A stretch of 64,000 nt of DNA. Source: Candidatus Methylacidiphilaceae bacterium (GTDB taxonomy: Bacteria; Verrucomicrobiota; Verrucomicrobiia; Methylacidiphilales; Methylacidiphilaceae). The notes beneath the pieces are model-generated. The model saw nothing but the letters and a program-made list of their open reading frames with translations. It was not told the DNA's origin and did no database searches. Positions 22,968 to 63,113 of this stretch are shown piece after piece. Where the stretch lies: NCBI GenBank assembly GCA_050179015.1, contig JBFXFN010000004.1, positions 1,800 to 65,799 on the forward strand. Reading direction: 5' to 3'. Positions within the stretch are counted from its first letter, which is position 1; each line of letters opens with the position of its first letter. A program made the translations under genes and the position numbers.

Positions 22968-24437
22968 CTATAAGCCTTGCCAGAAGAGGTTGATGGGTAG
23001 GAAGCTGTCCGCCCGCACAACGATCTCTGTTTTCGCGTAGGCGGAAATCGAGAACGGGAAGAGGCTCCAGTATTCCTGGCCTCCTTCTTCCGTGACCAGC
23101 CATAGAAAATGATGGCCGACCTGGAATCGTCCGTTTTCATCGAGACGGCGCCACTCGAAGCGCCCATCCGGGCCGATGGGAATCGTCGTGATAATCGAGC
23201 GTCGAGGAAGCTGGAGCAGCTGCTTTTGGAAATTGGCTCGCGCGGTCTCGGCTTGTGCCGTTGCGGCGGAAAGCTCGTTTTGATTTGCCGTAAACTCGTG
23301 TTGGAGAGGCAGCATCTCCTCTTCGGATTCCGTGATTCGTCCCTCGATAAGCGAGATCTGATTGCGAATGTCCGCTACCTTTGGCGCAACCTGCGCCTGG
23401 AACTCTTCAGTCTTCTTTTTCAGCGCCTGTTGCTTCTGCTCGTAAGCGCTTTGAAATTGGTGCCAGACCTGCAAGCCCTCCTCCGCCCACTTTCGCTCCT
23501 CCGTCACGTTTACGGAGGGAGGGGCGGAGTAGAGGGCGAGCTCGTAGGCATTGGCCCACGCTTCAGGCACGTGGACCGAGACGTCTTTCATCGTGACCGG
23601 CAGTCCGATCTGCTTGCTCCGCTCCTCAAAGGTGGATTCGATATGCGAGGCTATCGCATCATATTCTCGTTCCAGGGCGGCTCCCTCGGTTGCCCAGAGT
23701 TCCTTCCCCTTCTCTTGGGCCTCCTTGCCGAGGCTCTTCAACTCCTCCTCCGCCGCATGGAGCTGCTCTTTCAACAGATGGATGCGCTCTTGCTGGGCGG
23801 CTAGGTCGGATCGCACGCGCCGCAAGTTGTTTTCGGCGCTTTCAACCGTTTGCCGATAGGGTTCCACCGAGCTTCCGAAATCCCGTTGCAAGGCGCGGAC
23901 GTCTCCTGAAAAGTCGTAGACCACATACGCCTTGGTCGGCAGGGGAAGCTTGCCGGGAAAAATTTGCCCTTCCACCCGGGTTTCTCGCAGCGAGTAGTAG
24001 GTGCCAAAACCCGTCGCGGCTACGGCGCTGTAGAAGAGCAACCGGGCGAAGACGGCTAGCCATAGGCCCGCCCGAACACCGGTCTTCTCCGCCTTCTCTT
24101 CCTCGCCCAGCACCTCTGCGCGAAACTCCTCGTCGGAGACAGCGGTTGATTTCCGGGTTCCGAAGGATTCCTCTTCCCAAGCAGCTGGAGCGGAGCGCGG
24201 ATTGGCGTTCGGGGAGGGGCCGGCGTGGCCGGGAGGTGGCTTGCTTTTCGTTTCGGGCTCTTTGGGAACCGATCCGGACAAGGCACGGGGTGGACGGTGA
24301 GTTCCCTTCCCAGCCGCCATCCAAGGAGGACCTTTGCTTCTTGGTCCGCGACGGGAGGCGAGAGTAGGCCGGGCGTTTGCGCCCCCGGATGTCTCCGAAT
24401 CGAAAGATGGATCCCCCTTGCCGGATCGAGTGCTCAT
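22968..24437 (-). CDS. hypothetical membrane-anchored coiled-coil protein
   Basis: The start is Met78 of ORF 22968..24668, whose ATG overlaps the upstream stop (ATGA). The first ~125 aa or so are low-complexity, basic and Pro-rich. One TM segment follows (GLWLAVFARLLFYSAVAATGFGTYY), then about 250 aa of heptad-like Glu/Lys/Gln-rich sequence and a small C-terminal domain. I recognise no family. Confidence 0.6.
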   Translation of the reverse strand: MSTRSGKGDPSFDSETSGGANARPTLASRRGPRSKGPPWMAAGKGTHRPPRALSGSVPKEPETKSKPPPGHAGPSPNANPRSAPAAWEEESFGTRKSTAVSDEEFRAEVLGEEEKAEKTGVRAGLWLAVFARLLFYSAVAATGFGTYYSLRETRVEGQIFPGKLPLPTKAYVVYDFSGDVRALQRDFGSSVEPYRQTVESAENNLRRVRSDLAAQQERIHLLKEQLHAAEEELKSLGKEAQEKGKELWATEGAALEREYDAIASHIESTFEERSKQIGLPVTMKDVSVHVPEAWANAYELALYSAPPSVNVTEERKWAEEGLQVWHQFQSAYEQKQQALKKKTEEFQAQVAPKVADIRNQISLIEGRITESEEEMLPLQHEFTANQNELSAATAQAETARANFQKQLLQLPRRSIITTIPIGPDGRFEWRRLDENGRFQVGHHFLWLVTEEGGQEYWSLFPFSISAYAKTEIVVRADSFLPINLFWQGL

Positions 24438-25303
24438 AAGCGGGCGGCTAACGATACAGGGTAAGCCCCTAAGTGCACGATCCAAGCGGAATCTCCGCAG
24501 ATCTCCAGGCAGCCCGCTCGCAGCGTCTCCAGGGGAGGAGGATCGAACGTTTCCCATAGGCAAAGAAGAGCGCCCTCCGGCGACCATTCGGTCCCGGCGC
24601 ATGCGCAGGTTCGCTGCCAGCAGCCACCGAAGCGGTGGCGCCATCGGCCGATCGCTTCGGGCGAGCATCCCGCCATGAGAAAGACGGCTTTTTGAGTGAG
24701 CGAACAGTCCGGCAAACCGCGCGGCTCCGCTGCCAGCCAGACGATGTAGAAACCGGCGCGCCTCATCGAGCGGTTTGCGAGGTGGTAGGGCAGATCGATC
24801 TCGCCGCAGACCGCGAAGGGGGATTGGGTGTCGGGCCTGTGCGGCAGAGAGAGGAAAAGGTCGAGCAACCTCCGTTTGGGAAGCACAAGAAGATCGATCG
24901 CTTCTTCGGCCAGTAGCCGCCGGCCCTCCTCCGTGGAACGGACCGCTCGGTACTGGTCGGACGCGCCAAAACGCCTAAGGGCGGCCAACAGGCTTGCCGC
25001 TCCTCCGCAGCAGCCAATTCGGAGGACGCCTTGCTGGGCACGCGAACTCGAGAAGATTTCTTGGAAGATCGCTCGGATCCCTGAAGCGGAGAGAGAGCCG
25101 GTATTCTGCTCAATTAGATCCGCGACCACTTCTTCTTCGCGAATCGGATCGAAAATAAGCTGCGCTTTCCGGCGCTTTCGCTCTCCGATTCTTTTCGCCA
25201 CATCCATTCTCCGGTTGAGGAGGGTCAGAAGCTGACGATCCATCTCGTCGAGACTTCGGCGCAGCCGATCGATCTCCGCCTTTTGGGCGCGTTCAGGATT
25301 CAT
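24434..25303 (-). CDS. chorismate mutase fused to a short, divergent prephenate dehydratase/ACT-like region
   Basis: The N-terminal EIDRLRRSLDEMDRQLLTLLNRRMDVAKRIGERK is an AroQ-type CM_2 helix pattern. The C-terminus ends ...IVHLGAYPV, like the P-protein ACT end (LGSYP). The middle region is only about 110 aa and lacks recognisable PDT catalytic blocks. Confidence 0.65.
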   Translation of the reverse strand: MNPERAQKAEIDRLRRSLDEMDRQLLTLLNRRMDVAKRIGERKRRKAQLIFDPIREEEVVADLIEQNTGSLSASGIRAIFQEIFSSSRAQQGVLRIGCCGGAASLLAALRRFGASDQYRAVRSTEEGRRLLAEEAIDLLVLPKRRLLDLFLSLPHRPDTQSPFAVCGEIDLPYHLANRSMRRAGFYIVWLAAEPRGLPDCSLTQKAVFLMAGCSPEAIGRWRHRFGGCWQRTCACAGTEWSPEGALLCLWETFDPPPLETLRAGCLEICGDSAWIVHLGAYPVSLAARL

Positions 25304-54096: not shown

Positions 54097-54793
54097 TGTA
54101 GCCTTGGATCTTTCCGAGGTGGAGACCGCGCTCTTTCTGGCGCGTCGACTGCGCGAGCATGTCAATTGGTTCAAGGTGGGAAGTCAACTCTTCTTGCGCG
54201 GCGGACCAAAAGTCGTGCAGGAGCTTCGTTCTCTAGGCGCCCAAGTCTTTCTGGATCTGAAGTTTCACGACATCCCTGCCACGGTCGAGCGGGCCGTCCG
54301 AGCTTGCGTGGAGATGGATGTGGGCTATCTGACCGTGCATGCCCTTGGGGGACGAAGAATGCTGACCGCTGCCGCGGAGGCGGCTGCGGGCAGTAAGACC
54401 AGGATCCTCGCGGTGACCGTGCTGACAAGCTTGGAAGAGGAGGATCTCTCGGATATCGGTCTTGCCGGAAACCCTGCCGAATGTGTCTCTTCCCTTGCGG
54501 CGCTCGCCGGCGAGTGCGGCATTCACGGCATCGTCTGCTCCGCCCGCGACCTTTCCTCGCTGCGGAAAGCAGGCATCCGGCCGGAAGTGGTCGTGACTCC
54601 GGGGATCCGGCTTACGCCTCGGAAGGGGGATGACCAGCGGCGCACCGTCTCCCCTCAGGAGGCGTTCGCCCTCGGAGCGACTCACATCGTGGTCGGCCGT
54701 CCGGTGCTCGAAGCGGCGGATCCGGTCAAGTTGGTGCGAAACTTGCTTCGGAAGAACAATGACCCTGCTGAGGCTGGAGATTTCAGCAATTAG
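54065..54793 (+). CDS. pyrF: orotidine 5'-phosphate decarboxylase
   Basis: LIVALDL, FKVGSQLF and FLDLKFHDIPATV (the DxKxxD catalytic block) are present. I chose the GTG start at 54065. ATG 54011 is the alternative and the start remains uncertain. Confidence 0.85.
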   Translation: MSSLPLADGLIVALDLSEVETALFLARRLREHVNWFKVGSQLFLRGGPKVVQELRSLGAQVFLDLKFHDIPATVERAVRACVEMDVGYLTVHALGGRRMLTAAAEAAAGSKTRILAVTVLTSLEEEDLSDIGLAGNPAECVSSLAALAGECGIHGIVCSARDLSSLRKAGIRPEVVVTPGIRLTPRKGDDQRRTVSPQEAFALGATHIVVGRPVLEAADPVKLVRNLLRKNNDPAEAGDFSN

Positions 54794-55005
54794 GCATCCG
54801 AGGATCGCCTCTAGGGACGGAGAAATGGCCGGCGGACCCGTTTGTCGTCGGATCGGCCTGGGGAGATGCGGCAGGGAGAGAATGCCAGCCACAAGGAGCA
54901 GGGAGCTCTCCAAGCTCATCTTGCCATCCGCAGGAGAAATCCCGGAAGAGCGCCGGCTGAGAGGCCGATTTGCGGAGTAAAGCACATGCGCCTATTGTTG
55001 AAAGC

Positions 55006-56694
55006 ATGGCGAGAAAAGAAAAAGGATTCGGAGGGGACGCTCCTATGGCATTCGAAAACCTAGAATCGGCTTCCGCCTTGCAGGTCGTCGACCTGATCGG
55101 ACAATCCCTCTCCTTCGACGCGGTCTCGAGGGAGGCCTTCTTCTATCTTCGGCGCAGAGTCGCCGAGCTGGAGGAGACGAACGAACAGGCTCGCCAGACC
55201 CTGGAAAAGCTCAATGAGGCGGTGGAAAAGCTCTCAGCCCCGGCGAATCGGGTCGGCACCCTTCTCGGCCTGCCGAAGAAGGAGATCGCCCTAGTGGTGC
55301 AGGGAGGTACCGAGTTCTATTGCAAGATCGACCCGCGGCTTGGTCATGAGACGCTCTTGATCGGAACAAGGGTGTTGCTTAACGAGGCGTTTGCCGTCGT
55401 CGGCGATCTCGGCTTCGACTTTTCCGGCCCGGTGGTCAAGGTTCTCGACGTCTTGCCGGACAATCGGCTTCGCGTGGGCCATGAAGGAGTGGGAGGAAGC
55501 TTCGTGGTGATGCGCTCGACCCCGCTCGCCAAAGAGCGGATCAAGACGGGTCTCGAAATCCGGGTCGATGGTTCCTCCCGGGTTGCACTCGAGGTCGTGG
55601 CGGTCTCGAAGACCAAGCACCGTCTGCTCGATCAGGTTCCGGAACTTCCGTGGGAGAGGGTCGGGGGGCAGAAAGAAGCGGTGGGTGCTATCCGGGATGC
55701 GGTAGAACTGCCTTTCCTCTATGCGGACCTCTTCGCCAAGTATCACCATCACGTTCCGAAGGGATTTCTGCTTCATGGGCCGCCGGGGTGCGGGAAGACG
55801 CTCTTGGGAAAAGCAACCGCCTATAATCTGACTCGCAAGCTTCGAGAAGAGACGGGAGAGGAGCGGAAGGAGTTTTTCCTCCATGTAAAGGGCCCGGAGA
55901 TTCTTAACATGTGGGTCGGGGAATCGGAACGGCAGGTGCGGGACCTTTTCGAGCAGGCCCGGGAGCTTGCTCGGGAAGGGTACCTCCCCTTCATCTTCAT
56001 CGACGAGGCGGAATCGATTTTGGGCACCCGGCGGGCCGGGCGGTTCAACAGCATCCTCAACACGCTCGTTCCCATGTTCTGCGCCGAGATGGACGGTATC
56101 GAGTCGATGAGGGAGGTGGTGACCATTCTCGCCTCCAATCGGGCGGACCTGATCGATCCGGCTATTCTTCGGCCGGGCCGAATCGACCGGAAGATCAAGG
56201 TCAATCGGCCGGATCGTGCGGGCTCGGCCGAAATCTACCGGATCTACCTTGAGGAAGATCTCCCCTATGCCCCGGCTCTTCTGGCCGAGGCGGGCGAGGA
56301 TCGAGCAAAGGCGATCGACATCCTGATTAAGGGAGTGCTGGACGCCCAGTTCGCTCGGACGGAGCAGAACCGCTTCCTCGAAGTTACTTTCCGGAGCGGG
56401 AGAAAGGAATATCTCTATCGGGGCGACCTCATCAGCGGCGCGATCATTGCCTCGATTGTCGAGAGGGCCAAGGAGCTGGCGGTCAAGCGGGCGATCTCCG
56501 ATCCCTCGAATCATGGCTTGCGGTTGGAGGATCTTTTGACAGCGCTCGAGATCGAGTATCTTGAGAATGACATCTTCCCACCGTCCGATATCACGGAGGA
56601 CTGGTTGAAGCTCGTGGACTACGATCCACAGAATGTGGTTCGGCTGGCCCCCGTGCTCCGGAGGGAGGAAGCGACGGTGCGTCAGGTCGTCTGA
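55006..56694 (+). CDS. mpa: proteasome-associated AAA+ ATPase (Mpa/ARC family)
   Basis: The product has an N-terminal coiled coil (RRRVAELEETNEQARQTLEKLNEAVEKL), OB-like interdomain, Walker A GPPGCGKT, Walker B FIFIDEAES and an arginine-finger region ASNRADLIDPAILRPGRIDRKI. Met13 of ORF 54970..56694 is the chosen start and is uncertain. The C-terminus is ...TVRQVV. Confidence 0.9.
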   Translation: MARKEKGFGGDAPMAFENLESASALQVVDLIGQSLSFDAVSREAFFYLRRRVAELEETNEQARQTLEKLNEAVEKLSAPANRVGTLLGLPKKEIALVVQGGTEFYCKIDPRLGHETLLIGTRVLLNEAFAVVGDLGFDFSGPVVKVLDVLPDNRLRVGHEGVGGSFVVMRSTPLAKERIKTGLEIRVDGSSRVALEVVAVSKTKHRLLDQVPELPWERVGGQKEAVGAIRDAVELPFLYADLFAKYHHHVPKGFLLHGPPGCGKTLLGKATAYNLTRKLREETGEERKEFFLHVKGPEILNMWVGESERQVRDLFEQARELAREGYLPFIFIDEAESILGTRRAGRFNSILNTLVPMFCAEMDGIESMREVVTILASNRADLIDPAILRPGRIDRKIKVNRPDRAGSAEIYRIYLEEDLPYAPALLAEAGEDRAKAIDILIKGVLDAQFARTEQNRFLEVTFRSGRKEYLYRGDLISGAIIASIVERAKELAVKRAISDPSNHGLRLEDLLTALEIEYLENDIFPPSDITEDWLKLVDYDPQNVVRLAPVLRREEATVRQVV

Positions 56695-56733
56695 GCGATT
56701 GGGAAAAAAGAAACCGGAGGAGAGCACGGCACC

Positions 56734-58284
56734 ATGGACAAGCAGAGACCGATTCCGGCGTGGCCGATCTATTTTGGATTGGAAACCGAATTCGGGATTG
56801 CGGTTCGGGAGAACGCGGAGATCGATGTGGTCGAGGAGTCGATCCATCTGGTGCGGGCCGCCGCTCAGCTCGGCAGCCCAAATCTCTGGGACTATACCCG
56901 CGAAGATCCCCACCGCGATGCGCGCGGCTTCCGGGCGAAGGAGCTGCGGCAGGACGGGGATGAGGCGAACTTCTTTTCCCAAGATCGCCAGAGACCCTAT
57001 AGTTTCGAGGAGATCAAGAGCGACTTCGTCCTGCGGAACGGCGCGCGTTTTTATAACGATCACACCCATCCGGAATATTCGACTCCGGAATGCTCCACTC
57101 TGCTGGAGCTGGTGGCGCAGGACAAGGCGGGCGAAAGGATCCTGGAGGAGTGCGCTCGGGCGGCGAGTCGGAAGCGCAACCACACGATCTGCCTTTACAA
57201 GAACAACACCGACTTCGCCGGACACAGCTACGGCTGCCACGAGAACTATCTGATTCCGCGAATGATTCCCTGGGACCGGATCGTCGAGGGGATGATGGCA
57301 TTCCTGGTCACGCGGCAGATCTTCGGCGGTGCGGGGAAGCTGGGCTGGGAGAAGGAGGACCAGAGCATGGTCGGAGGTTTTCAGATCTCCCAGCGAGCCG
57401 ATTTCTTTACGGAGCTTGTGGGCATCGACACCATGAACCGGCGCCCTCTCATCAATACCCGGGACGAGCCCCACGCCAACCCCAAGCTCTACCGTCGCTT
57501 TCATGTCATCGTGGGCGACTCCAACCTCTCGGAGTATGCCACCTGGTTGAAGGTAGGCACGACGGCCTTGGTGTTGGAGGCGCTCCAGTACGACCGGGTG
57601 CCGCGCCGCTTCTTCCTGGCGGATCCGCTCTATGCCCATAGGAGCATCTCTCGGGACTGGACGAATCGCTGGGAAGTCGATCTCGCCCACGCGGGTTCGA
57701 CGACCGCCGCCCAGCTCCAGAACGACTACGCCGACTGGGTCGGCCGCTACGTGGACCTTGAGCATCCCGAAAAGCGGGCGGTTTGGAAGAGCTGGAAGGA
57801 GACCGTGGAGCTTCTGCAGACGGATGCAAATGCGTTGCGCGATCGGCTTGACTGGGTCGCAAAGCGGTCCATCCTGGAGACCTTTCGCGAGGAGCAGAAG
57901 CTTCCGTGGGATGATCCGTGGCTCCAAAGTCTCGACCTGGAATACCACCTGATGGACCGGGAGCGGGGTCTCTATTACGCTTTGGAATCGGCCGGCCAGA
58001 TCTGCCGGATCTCCCGGGAAGAGGACATCTATCGGGCGATCCAGCAGCCCCCCAATGCCTCCCGAGCCTATATCCGGGGCAAGTGCATCCAGAAGTTTGC
58101 CCGGGACTTGATCAACGTTCAGTGGGACTACATCGCCTTCTGCTGGAAAGGGCAGACCTATCGGGTCGAGCTCTCCTCGGCCTTTCCGGGTGTAGATTTG
58201 GAGCACTACTGTGATGTCATCGATCGGGCGCAGTTCGTTTCCGATATGATCGAGGGGTTGAAGCTGGAGCCGATTAGCGGCTAG
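56734..58284 (+). CDS. dop: Dop-like depupylase/deamidase homologue (Pup-ligase superfamily)
   Basis: GLETEFGI, an inserted loop with WDYTREDPHRDARGF (Dop-loop-like), NGARFYNDHTHPEYSTPEC, YGCHENYL, INTRDEPHA and RFHVIVGDSNLSE are present. The gene sits between the ATPase and the modifier, as in mycobacteria. Confidence 0.85.
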   Translation: MDKQRPIPAWPIYFGLETEFGIAVRENAEIDVVEESIHLVRAAAQLGSPNLWDYTREDPHRDARGFRAKELRQDGDEANFFSQDRQRPYSFEEIKSDFVLRNGARFYNDHTHPEYSTPECSTLLELVAQDKAGERILEECARAASRKRNHTICLYKNNTDFAGHSYGCHENYLIPRMIPWDRIVEGMMAFLVTRQIFGGAGKLGWEKEDQSMVGGFQISQRADFFTELVGIDTMNRRPLINTRDEPHANPKLYRRFHVIVGDSNLSEYATWLKVGTTALVLEALQYDRVPRRFFLADPLYAHRSISRDWTNRWEVDLAHAGSTTAAQLQNDYADWVGRYVDLEHPEKRAVWKSWKETVELLQTDANALRDRLDWVAKRSILETFREEQKLPWDDPWLQSLDLEYHLMDRERGLYYALESAGQICRISREEDIYRAIQQPPNASRAYIRGKCIQKFARDLINVQWDYIAFCWKGQTYRVELSSAFPGVDLEHYCDVIDRAQFVSDMIEGLKLEPISG

Positions 58285-58299
58285 AATTTAATTAAACCC

Positions 58300-58306
58300 A
58301 GGAGGG
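58300..58306 (+). promoter_or_regulatory. strong Shine-Dalgarno sequence for the small modifier ORF
   Basis: AGGAGGG lies 2 nt before ATG 58309 and 8 nt before the in-frame ATG 58315. The spacing favours 58315 as the start. Confidence 0.5.
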
Positions 58307-58308
58307 CT

Positions 58309-58491
58309 ATGTTGATGCCAGAACAAGTACGGAAGACGCAACCGGTTGGACCCGGCCCGGGGCCGGGAGGAGATGGGCCAGGCCCGAGGGCGCCTAGAGT
58401 GGATCGCCCGAACACCGAAGAAATCCTTAAGCGGATGCGCAAGGTCGATCCGGATCAGGCGAAGCGCTATCGCCAGCGGACCGGGGAGTAG
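58309..58491 (+). CDS. small Pup-like / UBact-like protein modifier ending in -RTGE
   Basis: This 60-aa ORF (58 aa from ATG 58315) lies exactly at the pup position between dop and prcB. It has a Gly/Pro-rich disordered N-terminus and a C-terminal helix-like EEILKRMRKVDPDQAKRYRQRTGE ending in Gly-Glu. A strong SD sequence lies upstream. Confidence 0.75.
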   Translation: MLMPEQVRKTQPVGPGPGPGGDGPGPRAPRVDRPNTEEILKRMRKVDPDQAKRYRQRTGE

Positions 58492-58495
58492 CTAG

Positions 58496-59293
58496 GTGGA
58501 GACCATAAGCGTCTCGTCCGGGGCGCAGACGGGCGATTTTTTCGCAGTGCTCCGATCGAGGAATCTTCTATTCCCGGAAGGAAAGCAGGCGATGGCCGGG
58601 GCGGGTTCGCTCGCCGCTTCGGAATCGACGACGGTCCTCAGCTTCCACTATAGGGATGGGGTGATCGTGGCGGGAGATCGGCGAGCCACGACGGGGCATA
58701 CGGTCATTCACGATCGAGCCGAGAAGGTTATCGAGATCGACCGGTTCACGGTAATGGCGATCGCAGGCGCTCCCGGGACCGCGTACGAGATCGCTCGAGT
58801 TCTCCAGCACTCCTTCGAGTACTACCGGCGGAGCCAGCTTCAACCCTTGTCGCTGGACGCCAAGGTGCGAATGGTCGGAAAGCTTCTCAAGGAGAACTTG
58901 GCCTTGACGCTTCAAGGAGTGGGGGTCGTGGTTCCCCTTCTCGGCCTGGTCGACCCTCTGGGAAAGGGGAGTCCAAAGATCTTTTTTTATGACGCCCTGG
59001 GCGCGCAATTCGAAGCCGTCGATTTCGCTGTTTCGGGCTCCGGAGCGCCCGCCGCTCGCAGCGTCCTTCAGTATCTCAACCGATGGAGCGGATCACCCCC
59101 GGCGCAACGCACGGAAGACGAGGCGATCGCGCTGGCTTTGCAACTTTTGGACGTAGCGGCGGAATCCGACACCGCCACGGGGGGCATCGATCGGAGGACG
59201 CGGATCTATCCCCAGGTGAAGGTCATTCGAAAAGCCGGAGTTCGGTCGATTGCCGACGAGCAACTGAGCCGCCTGCTCCCGACGGCGGCATAG
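58496..59293 (+). CDS. prcB: 20S proteasome beta subunit
   Basis: The gene has a GTG start. An N-terminal propeptide is followed by TTVLSFHYRDGVIVAGDRRAT...EKVIEI (Thr1/Asp17/Lys33 pattern) and SGSG, which is Ntn-hydrolase proteasome family. Confidence 0.9.
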   Translation: METISVSSGAQTGDFFAVLRSRNLLFPEGKQAMAGAGSLAASESTTVLSFHYRDGVIVAGDRRATTGHTVIHDRAEKVIEIDRFTVMAIAGAPGTAYEIARVLQHSFEYYRRSQLQPLSLDAKVRMVGKLLKENLALTLQGVGVVVPLLGLVDPLGKGSPKIFFYDALGAQFEAVDFAVSGSGAPAARSVLQYLNRWSGSPPAQRTEDEAIALALQLLDVAAESDTATGGIDRRTRIYPQVKVIRKAGVRSIADEQLSRLLPTAA

Positions 59294-59564
59294 GGTCTTT
59301 CACAAGGCTTTTCTTAAGAGATGCTGGATTCGTTCCAGCGGAAGAAGGCGAGGAACGTGCGCTGCCGCCGCTGGCAGCAACGGGGGTCACGAATGCCGGA
59401 AGGGGCATGTCTCGTCAGCCGGGAGGCGACGGATACTCATTTGCATTGAACTATGCCACGGTGCTGGTAGGCTTGCGACTTCCGTTTCCCTTCCGTCAAA
59501 GACCGTTCGGGCTTCGCCGAGATTTGGGGGGAGGGGAACCAGAGCTGCGAGAAAGAGGGCAAGC

Positions 59565-60341
59565 GTGATCGAGGAACCTTATCGGTGGTTGGAAGCGGTC
59601 CAGAATCGGCGCGAGTACATCGAGGATCAGCTTCGAGGGGCCGCACCCGTTGTCGCCGTTAGCGGAGAGCCGGGCATCCTCCTGCTCGCCGGCAAGGCGT
59701 CCACTCCGAAGATTTGCGAGATCTACGACCATTTGGCCCTGGGAGCGGTGGGCCATCCCGCCGACTTGGAAAAGATCCGCCAAACCGCGATCGAGGCGGC
59801 TCATGTCGAAGGATTTTCGCGGTCCCGGGCCGACGTGAGCGCACGGAGGATCGTTAGCTATGGGTTGGCCGGCGCCTTGAAAAGCGCCTTCGAGCAGATC
59901 TTTGCCGCTCCCCTGCTCTTTCGTGGAGTTCTCGTGGAGCTAGGGGGATCCCCTGCCGGGGACCAGGGATGGATTCTCGAATATGACGGGGGTTACGCCG
60001 GGGTGGAACTCGAGCAGTTGCGGCGCGGGGTTCTAATCGGCGCGCGACAAGACCTCTTCTCGCTCTGGCAAAAAGAGAGCCGGGGCTCGCCCTTCACTTC
60101 GGGCAAAAGCTGGAAGGAGCTGGCGCAGCACGCGCTGCGCGTGCTCGGCTGGGCGGCTCAGGAGGACGCGGAAAAGCGCGTCCCATGGACGCAATTCACG
60201 CCGCGCGAGCAATGGACCGAAGCCGAGTTGAGCGGCCGATTCGAAGTGGGCGCACTCTCCCGAGAAGCAGCTTCCGGCGGCGGACCGGCTTTTTTTGTGC
60301 CGGAAGCCCGGCAGCTTGGATGGACGGCAGAAAAGGAGTAG
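59565..60341 (+). CDS. prcA: 20S proteasome alpha subunit
   Basis: The gene has a GTG start. By eye the product aligns with bacterial PrcA (N-terminal helix EAVQNRREYIEDQLRGAAPVVAVSGEPGILLLA...KICEIYDHLALGAVG). It has no N-terminal Thr nucleophile. Confidence 0.8.
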   Translation: MIEEPYRWLEAVQNRREYIEDQLRGAAPVVAVSGEPGILLLAGKASTPKICEIYDHLALGAVGHPADLEKIRQTAIEAAHVEGFSRSRADVSARRIVSYGLAGALKSAFEQIFAAPLLFRGVLVELGGSPAGDQGWILEYDGGYAGVELEQLRRGVLIGARQDLFSLWQKESRGSPFTSGKSWKELAQHALRVLGWAAQEDAEKRVPWTQFTPREQWTEAELSGRFEVGALSREAASGGGPAFFVPEARQLGWTAEKE

Positions 60342-60344
60342 GAG

Positions 60345-61754
60345 ATGCGCAGGATTGCAGGCCTCGAAACCGAATATGGCTGTCTCTCCCAGCGAGCCAT
60401 GGATAGTCCGCCGGTACCCGAGCGGGTTCGAGACTATCTCTTCTTTCGAGAGCGGATCGGTCTCATCGATGTCCACGACCGGGATTATGACGAACCTGCG
60501 GGGAACGGAGGGTTTCTTTTCAACGGCGGGCGGCTCTATCTCGATATGGGACATATCGAGTATTGCACCGCTGAATGCCTCTTTCTGGAAGATCTGCTCG
60601 CTTCCGATCGAGCGGGCGAGAAGCTGCTGCAGCAGGCCCTGACCAACCTGGGTATCGCCGCGGAAGCGTCGTTCATCAAGAACAATATCGATCACTACAC
60701 GGGCGCAACCTTCGGCTGCCACGAGAATTACCTCCTCCACCGAGAGGCCCCGCTTTCGCAAGGCAACGTCGATGCCCTGCTCGCCTTTTTGGCCGTGCGA
60801 GGGCTGATGGTCGGAGCCGGCCGGGTAGGAACGGTGATGGTGCCGCGCGGCGTGGATCGGGGAGCAAGAACGCGCGCCATGCCTTTTCAAGTAATGCAGC
60901 GCGCCGACTACATTCAGACCGAGATTTACGAATGGGTCCAATTCAATCGGGCTCTGATCAACGCACGGGACGAGCCTTTGGGGGATCCTTGCCGCTTTCG
61001 CCGCTTGCATCTTCTCCTGGGAGACTCGAACATGCTTCCGTTTTCCCAAGCTCTCAAGGTAGGCAGCACTTCTCTCGTTCTCGATCTCCTGGAAGCGGAT
61101 CGGATGCCCCATATCGCCCTTGCCGACCCGGTGCGAACCATGCACCAGATTTCCCACTGTCCGGATGGCCCCTGGTTGATCGAATTGGCCGACGGAAGAA
61201 GATGGACCGCGGTGGAGCTCCTGGAGCACTTTTTGGCGGCGGCGAACCGGCTGGATCTGGAAGAGGATCAAGACAGCCTCTGGACCTCTATTGCTTGGGA
61301 AGAGGTTTTGCGCGGGCTGCGCGAGGAAAGCGATGCTCTCTTGGGGAAGGTCGATTGGATCACCAAGCGGCATCTGCTCGATCTCTTTCGAAGCCGCGAG
61401 GGGGTTCGTTGGGACGACCCCTGGATGGAGAGCCTCGATCTCGAGTACCACAATCTGAACGAAAAGCGGGGCTTGGCGGGGCTGATGCCCCACCCTTCGA
61501 TCGAGGAGCTCGGCCTTTCTGGCTTTGGAAACCAGGACCCGCAGCGAGAGGCTCCCCGGAACACCAGGGCCTACGCGCGCAGCCAGCTCATGCAGCGGGT
61601 AGTTGCGGGCAAGATCTCATACGTAATTGATTGGGACTACGTTCAGGTCGGCAACAGTGGATACTACTCCTTGGAGGATCCTTTCGTCAGTACAGTGCCT
61701 CCGAAGGCGGAGCTGCCGGGCCTGTGCGAGGATTTGGAGTTCCGGTCAAAATGA
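60345..61754 (+). CDS. pafA: PafA-like Pup/UBact--protein ligase
   Basis: MRRIAGLETEYG, NGGRLYLDMGHIEYCTAEC, FGCHENYL, INARDEPL and RRLHLLLGDSNM are present. The product is shorter than the Dop paralogue and lacks the Dop-type loop. GGAG lies upstream of the ATG. Confidence 0.85.
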   Translation: MRRIAGLETEYGCLSQRAMDSPPVPERVRDYLFFRERIGLIDVHDRDYDEPAGNGGFLFNGGRLYLDMGHIEYCTAECLFLEDLLASDRAGEKLLQQALTNLGIAAEASFIKNNIDHYTGATFGCHENYLLHREAPLSQGNVDALLAFLAVRGLMVGAGRVGTVMVPRGVDRGARTRAMPFQVMQRADYIQTEIYEWVQFNRALINARDEPLGDPCRFRRLHLLLGDSNMLPFSQALKVGSTSLVLDLLEADRMPHIALADPVRTMHQISHCPDGPWLIELADGRRWTAVELLEHFLAAANRLDLEEDQDSLWTSIAWEEVLRGLREESDALLGKVDWITKRHLLDLFRSREGVRWDDPWMESLDLEYHNLNEKRGLAGLMPHPSIEELGLSGFGNQDPQREAPRNTRAYARSQLMQRVVAGKISYVIDWDYVQVGNSGYYSLEDPFVSTVPPKAELPGLCEDLEFRSK

Positions 61755-61781
61755 TCCCCGCGTCCGTCGCTCCTCATTCCC

Positions 61782-63113
61782 ATGCTTGAAGCCCTCCAGA
61801 AGAAGCTCGAGTCGGTTTTTCGCGGCCTTCGGGGCTATGGAAAGCTTTCGGAGGCTAATATCGCCGATGCGCTCCGGGAGATTCGCCTCGCGCTCCTTGC
61901 CGCCGATGTCCACTATTCAGTAGCAAAGCGGCTCTGCGAAGAGATCCAGAAGAGGGCCCTCGGGAAAGAGGCGCTGACAGGCATTCGGCCGGGCGATCAA
62001 TTCGTCAAGCTCTTCCACGAGGAGCTTGTCCATCTCCTCGAAGAAGGCCAGAGGGAGATCCGGCCGGAACGGCCGATTCGACTTCTCCTTTGCGGACTCA
62101 ACGGATCGGGGAAGACCACAACCGCAGCAAAGCTCGCCCTCCGTTTCCGAAAGCAGCGTCAAAAAGTGGCACTTGTAGCGGGCGACCTGACGCGGCCCGC
62201 CGCTCGCGAGCAGCTCCAGCGGCTCGGAGAACAGATCCAGGTCCCGGTCTACTCCTGGCCGGATGGGACCGCGATGGAAACGGTCGTTCGCGAAGGACGG
62301 GCTCGAGGGGAGCAGGAGAGAATCGACGTGCTGATCTTCGACGCGGCAGGCCGGCTGGATGTCGATGCGGGCCTGCTCGAAGAGCTCGCGGGTGTAGCCA
62401 AGCTCTGGGAGCCTGGGGAATCACTGCTGGTGGTCGATGCGGCGACGGGACAGGTGGCGGTAAAGGTGGCGGAAGCCTTCGCGGCCAAGGTGCCGCTGAC
62501 CGGCTTGGTTCTATCGAGGGCCGACGGCGATGCCCGCGGGGGTGCCGCCCTCTCGATCCAGCAGGCGACAGGGCTTCCCATCAAGTTTTTGGGGGTAGGG
62601 GAGAAGCCGGATGCCTTGCAGGAGTTCGTTCCCGAACGATTCGTCGGGAGACTCTTGGGCATGGGGGACATCGTGGCGCTCGTCGATCGCGCACAGTCGG
62701 AAATCGACGCCCAGTCGATGGAGGAGATGACCAAGCGGCTGAAGAGCAATGAATTCGGGCTGCAGGATTTTCTCGGGCAGCTTCGGATGATGAAGCGGCT
62801 AGGTCCGCTCGAAAACCTCCTTGCGCTCCTCCCCAGCTTTCCCGGCAAGGAAGCGGTCAAGGTGGACGAGAAGAAGATCAAGCAGATCGAGGCCATCATC
62901 CTCTCCATGACGCCTGAAGAACGGCGCAGGCCGACCCTTCTTAACGGACGTCGCCGCCTACGGATCGCGCAGGGGAGTGGAACGCGGGTCAACGATGTCA
63001 ACGATCTCTTGCGCAAGTTCGATGCGATGCGGAAGATGATGCGGCAGGTTTCCAAGGGCGGATCGGGGAAGGGCTGGCCGAAGCTGGGTTTCCCTCGTTC
63101 CCTGCATGGTTGA
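61782..63113 (+). CDS. ffh: signal recognition particle protein Ffh
   Basis: The product has an N domain, a G domain ([36 protein letters not shown]) and a Met-rich M domain. Confidence 0.94.

What the first reader, a model, noticed from the sequence alone, without database searches (positions are those of the whole stretch)
55006..61754. Complete proteasome plus small-modifier conjugation cluster (Mpa/ARC - Dop - modifier - PrcB - PrcA - PafA) in a non-actinobacterial-looking genome
Seen in the sequence: six co-directional genes with gaps of 3-39 nt, apart from one 271-nt spacer. They encode:
- an AAA ATPase with a coiled coil plus GPPGCGKT and FIFIDEAES;
- a 516-aa Dop-like enzyme;
- a 58-60 aa ORF ending in Gly-Glu;
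- a proteasome beta subunit with a propeptide and the Thr1/Asp17/Lys33 pattern;
- an alpha subunit;
- a 469-aa PafA-like ligase.

Established knowledge: this is the gene order of the mycobacterial Pup-proteasome system (mpa-dop-pup-prcB-prcA ... pafA), which is classically an actinobacterial trait.

Inference: the surrounding genes look like a Gram-negative PVC/Verrucomicrobia-type chromosome. These include RNase HIII, Sel1 and LysM envelope proteins, lipoprotein signals, and mreBCD-PBP2-rodA, in about 60% GC DNA. From memory (unverified here), homologous loci in Verrucomicrobia, Nitrospirae and a few other Gram-negative phyla were reported bioinformatically as the UBact system. I know of no biochemical demonstration of conjugation, substrates or proteasomal targeting. 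This is the most interesting system in the window, although probably not strictly undescribed.
Basis: partly seen in the sequence, partly recalled or inferred. Interest (0 to 1): 0.85.

Follow-up and report, generated by a model that had tools for sequence, protein, structure and literature searches.

The report
UBact-proteasome gene cluster in a verrucomicrobial methanotroph
This is a real, complete set of genes for tagging proteins with a small modifier (UBact) and feeding them to a bacterial proteasome, found in a Methylacidimicrobium-like bacterium; the system has been described and is routinely annotated in this group, so it is correct but not new.

Summary
Six co-directional genes at 55006-61754 encode an Mpa/ARC-type AAA ATPase, a Dop-type enzyme, a 58-aa UBact modifier ending in RTGE, 20S beta and alpha subunits, and a PafA-type paralogue. 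The gaps are 39, 24-30, 4, 271 and 3 nt.

The small ORF passes the curated UBact models (Pfam PF20513, NCBIfam NF033388) and matches no Pup model. The organism is a Methylacidimicrobium relative, with 81-95% amino-acid identity to four named isolates and two MAGs. The same gene neighbourhood is present in Methylacidiphilum infernorum V4, whose proteasome locus was reported in 2008. UBact was named in 2017. UBact relatives occur in 357 species-level genomes, so the kind of system is already known.

Small additions from this work:
- A neighbour-joining tree, the missing Dop-loop and active-site motifs place the second paralogue on the PafA (ligase) side. Its 'alpha-loop' is a conserved sequence unlike actinobacterial PafA or Dop.
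- UBact-linked ATPases end in two aliphatic residues, not the GQYL motif of Mpa.
- The 271-nt beta-alpha spacer carries a family-conserved TTGCATTGAA promoter-like box.
- Sister lineages have an OsmC gene at that spot.

No biochemical study of UBact was found in the held library.

The parts
55006..56694 (+). Proteasomal AAA+ ATPase (Mpa/ARC type): N-terminal coiled coil, two OB domains, AAA module and a C-terminal region that aligns with Mpa up to its residue 587. It ends in ...RQVV instead of GQYL. An alternative start is ATG 55045 (549 aa).
   Evidence: Pfam AAA, Prot_ATP_ID_OB_N and Prot_ATP_ID_OB_C. TIGR03689 scores 451 bits, below its 504.75 cutoff. Mtb Mpa 7PX9 scores 344 bits, query aa 48-550 against Mpa 66-587. 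C-termini of the 45 UBact-linked ATPases listed (44 distinct loci). Start ambiguity.
56734..58284 (+). Dop-type deconjugase/deamidase (516 aa) with the Dop-loop
   Evidence: Pup_ligase 525 bits. TIGR03688 (Dop) 440.7 vs TIGR03686 (PafA) 364.5 bits. It aligns end to end with A. cellulolyticus Dop 4B0R at 382.7 bits, vs 234.2 for PafA 4B0T, and the alignment covers the Dop-loop. Dop-specific residues from Hecht 2020 Table 1 are present.
58315..58491 (+). UBact modifier, 58 aa (60 aa if read from ATG 58309). It is basic (pI 10.5), has a Gly/Pro-rich N-terminal half, an invariant C-terminal half, and ends in RTGE.
   Evidence: PF20513 81.7 bits (cutoff 27.8) and NF033388 86.2 bits (cutoff 35). No Pup match even at E<=10. 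21 invariant columns in 25 homologues. Excess of synonymous changes, and AGGAGG 10 nt upstream of ATG 58315.
58496..59293 (+). 20S proteasome beta subunit with a 44-aa propeptide; Thr1 = T45, Asp17 = D61, Lys33 = K77
   Evidence: Pfam Proteasome 88.9 bits. TIGR03690 160.4 bits, below its 191.9 cutoff. Residue 45 aligns with residue 1 of the mature Rhodococcus (1Q5Q_H) and Mtb (2FHG_H) beta subunits.
59294..59564 (+). 271-nt beta-alpha spacer. The 5' half is variable. The 3' ~127 nt is conserved and holds a promoter-like box: TTGCATTGAA at 59441-59450, a -35-like TTGAAC at 59446-59451, and an extended -10-like TGGTAGGCT at 59465-59473.
   Evidence: Alignment of six Methylacidimicrobium-type spacers. 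The 10-mer occurs once in the window and once in each of the seven Methylacidiphilaceae loci (one of them, L001, is the window's own contig), always in this spacer and including low-GC M. infernorum. It is absent from the 75 other loci. No Rfam match, no unusual RNA fold (z = -0.9), no OsmC remnant. The strict promoter scan did not call it, so the promoter reading is inference.
59565..60341 (+). 20S proteasome alpha subunit, divergent, with a GTG start. The N-terminus M(I/T)EEPYRWLEA is conserved across the phylum, and the pocket lysine K49 is invariant.
   Evidence: TIGR03691 53.8 bits, below its cutoff. Profile A3 hits 1Q5Q_A at 1.7e-19 and Mtb PrcA at 1.1e-18. 62 distinct orthologous alpha ORFs begin at the same residue. 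Alignment.
60345..61754 (+). PafA-type paralogue (469 aa), the inferred UBact-protein ligase. It has no Dop-loop and carries a family-specific 'alpha-loop' (YIQTEIYEWVQFNR).
   Evidence: Pup_ligase 367.5 bits. TIGR03686 272.3 vs TIGR03688 259.2 bits. It aligns end to end only with PafA 4B0T; Dop structures align only from query aa 47-49 on, so the Dop-loop region is skipped. In an NJ tree it groups with C. glutamicum PafA in 90 of 100 bootstraps. AF2 model pLDDT 81.9. Foldseek gives PafA 4BJR 2.4e-27 and Dop 8e-27.
54970..54998 (+). Candidate promoter upstream of the ATPase gene (TTGCGG, 17 nt, TATTGT), inside a block conserved in six related loci
   Evidence: Alignment and sequence. The scan did not call it. 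This is a weak inference.

Best explanation
The cluster is the UBact-proteasome system of a Methylacidimicrobium-like verrucomicrobium. It is the sister system of the actinobacterial Pup-proteasome system.

Inferred mechanism, by homology to the characterised Pup pathway:
1. UBact is translated with a C-terminal Glu, so it needs no deamidation here.
2. The PafA-type paralogue uses ATP to phosphorylate the gamma-carboxylate of that Glu and transfers UBact to the epsilon-amino group of a target lysine.
3. The hexameric ATPase captures the disordered tag through its N-terminal coiled coils. It threads the tag through its OB and AAA pore (WVG pore loop) and unfolds the substrate.
4. The substrate enters an alpha7-beta7-beta7-alpha7 core whose beta subunits self-process to expose Thr1.
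5. The Dop-type enzyme removes UBact from substrates. In the roughly three quarters of relatives whose UBact ends in Gln, it would also deamidate the tag.

Shown here: family membership of each part, catalytic motifs, gene order, purifying selection, and vertical conservation across Verrucomicrobiota.

Inferred only: conjugation itself, which paralogue is the ligase, tag recognition by the ATPase, and degradation.
For: - Domain and family assignments for all six products.
- Residue-level alignment to solved Dop, PafA, Mpa and 20S structures.
- Dop-specific residues and the Dop-loop are in gene 2. PafA-type LYLD(M)G..EY.TAEC, Phe34 and the IDW Asp are in gene 6, judged against Table 1 of Hecht 2020.
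- The NJ tree splits Dop-side from PafA-side in 90 of 100 bootstraps.
- Catalytic Thr1/Asp17/Lys33 are intact in beta. The activator-pocket Lys in alpha is invariant.
- The UBact C-terminal 27 residues are nearly invariant, and termini are RTGQ (60), RTGE (20), RSGQ (1) among the 81 UBact genes analysed: 80 fetched loci plus the window.
- The order ATPase-Dop-UBact-beta-alpha-PafA recurs in most of the 80 fetched loci.
- The locus and its pyrF...ffh-rpsP-trmD-rplS flanks are identical in order in M. infernorum V4.
- GC is uniform at about 0.60 across the window.
- The system type is described in the literature.
Against: - No experiment on any UBact system was found.
- All five large proteins score below the NCBIfam equivalog cutoffs built on actinobacterial sequences.
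- The PafA-type paralogue is about equally distant from solved Dop and PafA in sequence (200-206 vs 190-192 bits) and in fold.
- Its alpha-loop, which in PafA contacts targets, shares nothing with PafA. Public names for it are contradictory.
- The ATPase lacks the penultimate Tyr of the GQYL motif that Mpa inserts into the 20S pockets (PMC9599533).
- UBact is basic, whereas Pup is acidic (the Pup value is from my own knowledge), so the binding surfaces must differ.
Confidence: 0.82

Rival explanations
1. UBact conjugation mainly serves a non-degradative, regulatory or protective role, and the proteasome works largely independently of the tag. Pupylation exists without a proteasome in some actinobacteria (established knowledge). 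Iyer et al. proposed membrane-protein tagging in Plesiocystis and Rhodopirellula.
For: - The ATPase lacks the GQYL docking motif.
- A promoter-like box separates prcA-pafA from ATPase-dop-ubact-prcB.
- In 13 Methylacidiphilales MAG loci the PafA-type gene is not next to the proteasome genes.
- Iyer 2008 notes proteasome-unlinked Pup systems.
Against: - In this window all six genes are contiguous, and the UBact gene lies 4 nt from prcB.
- The ATPase keeps the coiled coil and OB domains that in Mpa recruit the tag.
- The linkage recurs in most of the fetched loci, which are mostly Verrucomicrobiota.
Confidence: 0.1
2. The second Pup_ligase paralogue is not a ligase but a second hydrolase or an enzyme with another activity. 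The ligase function would then lie elsewhere or with the Dop-type protein.
For: - It is nearly equidistant from Dop and PafA in sequence and fold.
- NCBI names many orthologues 'PafA2 family' or 'peptidase'.
- 40 of 47 orthologues have the Dop-like T-P-E rather than PafA's T-A-E.
- The alpha-loop is unlike PafA.
Against: - It has no Dop-loop, and it aligns end to end only with PafA.
- It shares the PafA-type insertion before the QRAD motif and the invariant Asp at the PafA-unique position 439.
- It falls on the PafA side of the duplication in 90 of 100 bootstraps.
- A conjugation system needs a ligase, and gene 2 is clearly Dop-like.
Confidence: 0.07
3. The cluster is a recent horizontal acquisition from Actinobacteria, not a resident verrucomicrobial system.
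For: - Hou 2008 and Hecht 2020 favour horizontal transfer among bacteria at some depth.
- The best solved-structure matches are actinobacterial.
Against: - GC equals the genome background, and the flanks are core genes with no mobile-element signs.
- The whole ~16-kb neighbourhood has the same gene order in Methylacidiphilum, and the order is kept in most fetched loci.
- The modifier belongs to a different sequence family from Pup.
- Scores to actinobacterial families are all below equivalog cutoffs.
Confidence: 0.03

Closest known systems
UBact-proteasome loci of Gram-negative phyla (Lehmann, Udasin, Livneh & Ciechanover 2017, BBRC 483:946). The same locus in Methylacidiphilum infernorum V4 covers Minf_1279-1284 (Hou et al. 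2008; Iyer et al. 2008).
   Same: - Same modifier family (PF20513, NF033388), the same C-terminal R-T-G-[EQ], and the same six genes in the same order.
- The gene neighbourhood, from radical-SAM/ispE/pyrF to ffh-rpsP-trmD-rplS-rnhB, is identical in M. infernorum.
- Protein identity to Methylacidimicrobium isolates is 81-95%.
   Different: Nothing of kind. This copy is from a species whose exact sequence I found only in one Logan metagenome contig. It has a window-specific 195-nt insertion between pyrF and the ATPase gene.
Actinobacterial Pup-proteasome system (mpa/arc-dop-pup-prcB-prcA ... pafA; M. tuberculosis Rv2115c-Rv2097c)
   Same: - Homologous ATPase with coiled coil, OB domains and AAA module.
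- Dop with the Dop-loop, and a PafA-side paralogue.
- Self-processing beta subunit, and alpha with the pocket Lys.
- A small disordered modifier ending in G-[EQ], with the same gene order.
   Different: - The modifier has no detectable sequence match to Pup. It is basic (pI 10.5) and ends in RTGE rather than GGQ/GGE.
- The ATPase ends in two aliphatic residues, not GQYL (vs PMC9599533).
- The ligase-side alpha-loop is a different conserved sequence.
- pafA lies directly after prcA rather than several genes away.
- All large proteins fall below the actinobacterial equivalog cutoffs.
Archaeal PAN-20S proteasome with SAMP/ubiquitin-fold modifiers
   Same: AAA ATPase with coiled coil and OB domain feeding a Thr1 20S core. 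PAN models hit the ATPase at 180-186 bits and archaeal beta models hit the beta subunit at 86 bits.
   Different: The modifier is not a beta-grasp protein. Conjugation uses glutamine-synthetase-fold enzymes rather than E1-like adenylation (Iyer 2008). The ATPase has two OB domains and the Mpa-type C-terminal region.

Membership tests
UBact (Pfam PF20513 / NCBIfam NF033388) | Scores above the curated cutoffs of the family models | tested here: met
   81.7 bits vs 27.8 and 86.2 bits vs 35
UBact (Pfam PF20513 / NCBIfam NF033388) | C-terminus R-[TS]-G-[EQ] after an invariant KRMRKVDPDQA[KR]RYRQ block | tested here: met
   Ends ...LKRMRKVDPDQAKRYRQRTGE. 21 invariant columns in 25 homologues. Termini are RTGQ/RTGE/RSGQ in the 81 UBact genes analysed.
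UBact (Pfam PF20513 / NCBIfam NF033388) | Gene lies next to a Pup-ligase-family gene and the proteasome subunit genes | tested here: met
   Lies between the Dop-like and beta genes here and in every fetched locus that holds a Dop-like gene
UBact (Pfam PF20513 / NCBIfam NF033388) | Covalent attachment through the C-terminal Glu to substrate lysines | not testable with these tools
   Needs biochemistry or proteomics. No published test was found.
Pup (actinobacterial prokaryotic ubiquitin-like protein) | Match to the Pup sequence family and a GG[QE] C-terminus | tested here: not met
   UBact was the only Pfam family matched by the window protein or by 24 homologues at E<=10, so no Pup model hit. 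The terminus is TGE. It works like Pup by inference, but it is not a member of that sequence family.
Dop (depupylase/deamidase, TIGR03688) | Pup_ligase fold with the ~40-residue Dop-loop and Dop-specific residues around the catalytic Asp (D-H-x-H-P-E-Y-S-T-P-E) | tested here: met
   Aligns end to end with 4B0R, including the loop (WDYTREDPHRDARGF vs WDFEEENPLRDARGF). NDHTHPEYSTPE is present, and S36 and V40 match Dop Ser27 and Val31.
Dop (depupylase/deamidase, TIGR03688) | NCBIfam equivalog cutoff | tested here: not met
   440.7 bits vs 492.3. It is a divergent sister of the actinobacterial clade.
PafA (Pup-protein ligase, TIGR03686) | Pup_ligase fold without a Dop-loop, on the PafA side of the Dop/PafA duplication | tested here: met
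   Aligns 2-448 with 4B0T residues 10-460, whereas Dop aligns only from query aa 47-49 on. The NJ split has 90 of 100 bootstraps, with only one PafA reference.
PafA (Pup-protein ligase, TIGR03686) | PafA-specific alpha-loop residues (H188, W190, E191, G192, S194, S195, A196, R199, S200 in C. glutamicum) | tested here: not met
   The window has YIQTEIYEWVQFN where PafA has HVWEGVSSATTRS. The replacement is conserved in 47 orthologues. AF2 gives this stretch pLDDT below 50.
PafA (Pup-protein ligase, TIGR03686) | NCBIfam equivalog cutoff | tested here: not met
   272.3 bits vs 551.3. The Dop model scores nearly the same, 259.2.
PafA (Pup-protein ligase, TIGR03686) | ATP-dependent ligation of the modifier's Glu to lysine | not testable with these tools
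   Enzyme assay required
Mpa/ARC proteasomal ATPase (TIGR03689) | Coiled coil, two OB domains, AAA module with Walker A/B and pore loop, and the Mpa-type C-terminal region | tested here: met
   Pfam OB_N, OB_C and AAA. Query aa 48-550 align with Mpa 66-587 at 344 bits. GPPGCGKT, FIFIDEAES and WVG are in the translation.
Mpa/ARC proteasomal ATPase (TIGR03689) | C-terminal GQYL (penultimate Tyr) that docks in the 20S alpha pockets | tested here: not met
   The window ends RQVV. All 45 UBact-linked ATPases listed end in aliphatic or small residues and none has a penultimate Tyr. Motif definition is from PMC9599533.
Mpa/ARC proteasomal ATPase (TIGR03689) | NCBIfam equivalog cutoff | tested here: not met
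   451 bits vs 504.75
Bacterial 20S proteasome beta (TIGR03690 / Pfam PF00227) | Ntn-hydrolase fold with a propeptide and Thr1, Asp17, Lys33 | tested here: met
   PF00227 88.9 bits. T45 aligns with residue 1 of mature beta subunits. D61 and K77 are at +16 and +32. TIGR03690 scores 160.4 bits, below its 191.9 cutoff.
Bacterial 20S proteasome alpha (TIGR03691 / Pfam PF00227) | Recognisable alpha-subunit homology, including the activator-pocket lysine | tested here: met
   The single sequence is below the cutoffs (18.3 vs 22.4 bits; 53.8 vs 139.05 bits). The orthologue profile hits the Rhodococcus and Mtb alpha subunits at 1.7e-19 and 1.1e-18. K49 is invariant and sits in the motif that aligns with the Rhodococcus alpha HKVSELYD; its equivalence to Mtb Lys52 is my reading from memory of the PrcA sequence.

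The most novel reading that the evidence does not exclude
UBact systems may be a mechanistically distinct variant of the Pup pathway, not a relabelled copy. The evidence does not exclude the following reading:
- The basic tag is read by co-evolved surfaces.
- The ligase uses a different, family-specific target-recognition loop.
- The ATPase docks on the 20S core through an aliphatic C-terminus instead of the Tyr-containing GQYL/HbYX motif.
- In Methylacidiphilaceae, prcA-pafA has its own conserved promoter or operator (TTGCATTGAA), so ligase and alpha-subunit levels can be set separately from ATPase, Dop, UBact and beta. An OsmC/Ohr peroxidase gene sits in the same spacer in sister lineages, which would fit an oxidative-stress link.
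Probability: 0.3. Interest if true: 0.45.

Novelty: already known. Interest (0 to 1): 0.25.

Why it matters
It confirms that proteasome-linked protein tagging is a resident, vertically kept trait of verrucomicrobial methanotrophs.

Its practical value is modest. Cultured relatives (Methylacidiphilum infernorum V4 and the Methylacidimicrobium isolates) carry the same locus, so the open question can be addressed there. That question is whether UBact is really conjugated and targets proteins to the proteasome.

The residue-level differences listed here give concrete hypotheses for such work: the ATPase C-terminus, the ligase alpha-loop, the basic tag and the internal promoter box.

Tried and rejected
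- **Spacer as a decayed OsmC gene.** tblastn with the OsmC-like ORF from L036 found nothing in the window's spacer.
- **Spacer as a known RNA.** No Rfam match at E<=1 over 54800-62000. The whole-window gathering search found only three tRNAs.
- **Spacer as a structured RNA.** Folding z-score is -0.9, unremarkable.
- **Canonical promoters and terminators.** The scan found no more than chance and did not call the boxes I describe, so those remain inference.
- **Fold comparison to decide ligase vs hydrolase.** Foldseek scores for PafA and Dop structures are indistinguishable. AF2 confidence is low exactly in the alpha-loop.
- **Wasted and failed look-ups.** One search used too strict an E-value and did not print the PafA alignment; I repeated it. 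Look-up of P0125 failed, so P0119 was used instead. The Lehmann 2017 paper is not in the held library.
- **Recent transfer from Actinobacteria.** Rejected on composition, synteny and score grounds.
- **Sigma-54 reading of the spacer box.** Rejected by eye because the GG-to-GC spacing does not fit.
- **Sigma-32-type reading of the spacer box.** Could not be decided.

Full report
**1. Observation.**
The window holds six co-directional ORFs on the + strand:
- ATPase, 55006-56694
- Dop-like, 56734-58284 (516 aa)
- Small ORF, 58309/58315-58491
- Beta subunit, 58496-59293
- Alpha subunit, 59565-60341
- PafA-like, 60345-61754 (469 aa)

GC is flat at about 0.60 across the whole window, including the cluster.

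**2. What the parts are.**
Pfam gives AAA plus both proteasomal-ATPase OB domains for gene 1. It gives Pup_ligase for gene 2 (525 bits) and gene 6 (367 bits), UBact for the small ORF (81.7 bits, cutoff 27.8), and Proteasome for beta at 88.9 bits.

NCBIfam agrees. The UBact equivalog passes (86.2 vs 35). The pup_AAA, Dop, PafA, 20S_bact_beta and 20S_bact_alpha models are each the top hit for their gene, but all fall below their equivalog cutoffs. That fits a sister clade of the actinobacterial proteins on which those models were built.

The alpha ORF is weak as a single sequence (18.3 bits vs Pfam's 22.4). Its N-terminus M(I/T)EEPYRWLEA is shared by 62 distinct orthologous alpha ORFs. A 32-sequence profile hits the Rhodococcus and M. 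tuberculosis alpha subunits at E=1.7e-19 and 1.1e-18.

Beta residue T45 aligns with residue 1 of mature actinobacterial beta subunits. This gives a 44-aa propeptide, with Asp17 = D61 and Lys33 = K77.

**3. The small ORF is a gene.**
It has an AGGAGG Shine-Dalgarno sequence 10 nt before ATG 58315. Family members start MPEQ/MPDQ, which favours the 58-aa form. Against six related loci it shows 11-17 synonymous vs 3-5 non-synonymous codon changes, and all the non-synonymous changes but two lie in the N-terminal half.

Across 25 homologues from several phyla the C-terminal half is nearly invariant. None of the 25 matches any Pfam family other than UBact, even at E<=10, so there is no Pup match. The protein is basic (pI 10.5). 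Pup is acidic by my own knowledge.

**4. Organism and conservation.**
The closest UBact proteins are from Methylacidimicrobium cyclopophantes and Methylacidimicrobium sp. AP8 (92% and 90% identity). Methylacidiphilum follows at 70-85%. NCBI already names several of these proteins 'ubiquitin-like protein UBact'.

A pattern scan of one genome per GTDB species found 357 stretches that encode a UBact relative, and the 80 best were fetched. tblastn with the window's proteins gave three results:
- The order ATPase-Dop-UBact-beta-alpha-PafA recurs in most of the 80 loci, which are mostly from Verrucomicrobiota.
- Identity to four Methylacidimicrobium isolates and two MAGs is 81-95%.
- In those relatives pyrF lies upstream and ffh downstream.

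The exact Dop-like protein was found in only one public contig, a Logan assembly of SRR27751817.

M. infernorum V4 (CP000975) has the same gene order from a radical-SAM gene, through ispE, pyrF and the six genes, to ffh, rpsP, trmD, rplS and rnhB. So the locus is resident and vertically inherited within Methylacidiphilaceae. The rest of the window is ordinary chromosome: leuA, prc, RNase G/E, PBP2, two htrA/degP, ligA, lysS and a Sel1 protein.

**5. Which paralogue does what.**
*Gene 2 is a Dop orthologue.*
- It aligns end to end with A. cellulolyticus Dop at 382.7 bits, vs 234.2 for PafA.
- The alignment includes the Dop-loop: WDYTREDPHRDARGF against WDFEEENPLRDARGF.
- It carries the Dop-specific residues tabulated by Hecht et al. 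2020 (PMC7947786): S36, V40, D-H, S-T-P and the alpha-loop Gly.

*Gene 6 is equidistant from solved Dop and PafA by score.* It scores 200-206 vs 190-192 bits, NCBIfam gives 272 vs 259, and Foldseek gives 2.4e-27 vs 8e-27.

Several features still place it on the PafA side:
- It aligns end to end only with PafA and lacks the Dop-loop.
- It has LYLDMG-HIEYCTAEC, where PafA has LYLDVGSHPEYATAEC and Dop has LYVDHAHPEYSTPE.
- It keeps Phe34 (PafA Phe41) and the Asp of IDW (PafA-unique Asp439), which is invariant in 47 orthologues.
- A neighbour-joining tree of 24 UBact-type paralogues plus Acel and Mtb Dop and C. glutamicum PafA recovers the split {Dop side | PafA side} in 90 of 100 bootstraps.

There are caveats:
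- The tree has only one PafA reference.
- 40 of 47 orthologues have T-P-E (Dop-like) where this genome has T-A-E.
- The alpha-loop (YIQTEIYEWVQFN) resembles neither enzyme, although it is highly conserved within the UBact-type family. Hecht et al. show that this loop controls ligase vs hydrolase behaviour and contacts targets.
- AF2 models the loop with low confidence.
- Public annotations of these orthologues disagree: 'PafA2 family', 'Pup--protein ligase', 'proteasome accessory factor A', 'peptidase'.

I conclude that it is the ligase. This is a well-supported inference, not a demonstrated fact.

**6. ATPase.**
Query aa 48-550 align with Mpa residues 66-587, which covers the coiled coil, both OB domains, the AAA module and the C-terminal region. 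In Mpa the C-terminal GQYL inserts into the alpha-ring pockets, with Tyr608 and the Leu609 carboxylate contacting alpha Arg26, Glu119 and Lys52 (PMC9599533).

The window protein ends ...TVRQVV. All 45 UBact-linked ATPases I could read end in two aliphatic or small residues (VV, II, IV, AV, TI and similar), and none has a penultimate Tyr. The alpha lysine that I take to be the counterpart of Mtb Lys52 (K49) is invariant. Docking of a C-terminal carboxylate is therefore plausible, but the aromatic contact is absent.

**7. The 271-nt spacer.**
In most Verrucomicrobiota the beta and alpha genes are a few nt apart. In Methylacidimicrobium the gap is about 250-340 nt. In 13 other Methylacidiphilales MAG loci it is about 470-580 nt and holds a 132-aa OsmC-family ORF (Pfam 58 bits), with no PafA-type gene downstream of alpha.

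The window's spacer shows no OsmC remnant, no Rfam hit and no unusual fold. Its 5' half is variable, and its 3' ~127 nt is conserved among six Methylacidimicrobium-type loci.

The 10-mer TTGCATTGAA occurs once in the window, at 59441-59450. It also occurs once in each of the seven Methylacidiphilaceae loci, one of which (L001) is the window's own contig, and always in this spacer. That includes low-GC M. infernorum. It occurs in none of the 75 other loci.

I read the box as a sigma-70-family promoter: TTGAAC, 16 nt, TGnTAGGCT. It could also be an operator for prcA-pafA. The strict scan does not call it, so this remains an inference.

**8. Mechanism.**
By homology with the Pup pathway (Iyer 2008; Hecht 2020; PMC9599533):
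- UBact-Glu is activated and ligated to lysines by the PafA-type enzyme.
- Tagged proteins are captured and unfolded by the ATPase.
- They are degraded in the 20S core.
- The Dop-type enzyme removes the tag.

Among the 81 UBact genes analysed (80 fetched loci plus the window), termini are RTGQ in 60, RTGE in 20 and RSGQ in 1. The Gln forms imply that the deamidase activity of Dop is used in most lineages, though not in this one.

**9. Comparison and novelty.**
This is the UBact system. The proteasome genes of M. infernorum were pointed out in its genome paper (Hou 2008). Iyer, Burroughs and Aravind listed Methylacidiphilum and other verrucomicrobia among non-actinobacterial lineages with Pup-like modifiers and two PafA paralogues. 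Lehmann et al. 2017 introduced the name UBact. Pfam and NCBIfam both have dedicated models. Hence my rating is 'already known'.

I found no experimental work on UBact in the searchable library. The 2017 paper is not held, and later subscription-journal work could be missed.

**10. Verdict.**
The system is real, complete and apparently functional, but it is not new.

The points that go beyond what I could find stated in the papers I could read are variant-level details of moderate interest:
- the aliphatic ATPase C-terminus
- the family-specific alpha-loop
- the basic tag
- the conserved spacer box
- the OsmC insertion in sister lineages

Noticed in passing
L036:7050-7448, and the equivalent beta-alpha gaps in L018, L023, L027, L030, L032, L033, L039, L040, L041, L042, L043, L046: In 13 Methylacidiphilales-type MAG loci a 132-aa OsmC/Ohr-family gene (Pfam OsmC, 58 bits) sits between prcB and prcA. 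No PafA-type gene follows prcA there; in L036 the next ORFs look like purS, purQ and purL by eye. This may link the proteasome locus to peroxide stress.
   Followed up: partly
window 59438-59475; L082:9145-9154; L002:7202, L003:7097, L013:5088, L016:1885, L056:7195: TTGCATTGAA, followed by a TGnTA..T-type element, occurs exactly once per locus and always in the beta-alpha spacer of Methylacidiphilaceae. It is kept even in low-GC M. infernorum. It is a candidate internal promoter or operator for prcA-pafA.
   Followed up: partly
window 56659-56694 (ATPase C-terminus) and 44 related loci: UBact-linked proteasomal ATPases end in two aliphatic or small residues (VV, II, IV, AV, TI and similar). 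None has the penultimate Tyr of Mpa's GQYL or the archaeal HbYX motif.
   Followed up: partly
window 60912-60992 (PafA-type aa 190-216): The 'alpha-loop' of the PafA-side paralogue is a conserved motif of its own in 47 orthologues: QRADYI[NQ]N[DE][LF][FY]EWVQ[FH]NRAIINTRDEP. It is unlike the PafA or Dop loops. AF2 confidence is low there.
   Followed up: partly
window 54761-54955: A 195-nt stretch between pyrF and the ATPase gene is absent from five related Methylacidimicrobium loci. It has no other copy in the window or in any fetched locus. Its origin is unknown.
   Followed up: partly
window 55006 vs 55045: The ATPase start is ambiguous. ATG 55006 has no Shine-Dalgarno sequence but its N-terminal residues are conserved in relatives. 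ATG 55045 has GGAGG 10 nt upstream and is the start used by the public gene call. A TTGCGG-17-TATTGT promoter-like pair at 54970-54998 would put the transcript start near 55005.
   Followed up: partly
81 UBact genes (80 fetched loci L002-L081 plus the window): UBact ends in Gln in 61 of the 81 genes and in Glu in 20. All Methylacidimicrobium loci and the M. infernorum and M. kamchatkense proteins end in Glu. Most lineages would therefore need a deamidase step, and this one would not.
   Followed up: yes
L006, L011, L028 (record titles): MAG records titled Akkermansia muciniphila, 'uncultured Klebsiella sp.' and Klebsiella pneumoniae carry verrucomicrobial-type UBact loci. These are probably mislabelled bins.
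   Followed up: no
window 22968-24668 (- strand): A 566-aa ORF with no Pfam match at E<=1e-5.
   Followed up: no
L025:8833-9390: One Limisphaerales locus has an extra AAA-ATPase-like segment (35% identity to the window ATPase) inserted between prcA and the PafA-type gene.
   Followed up: no
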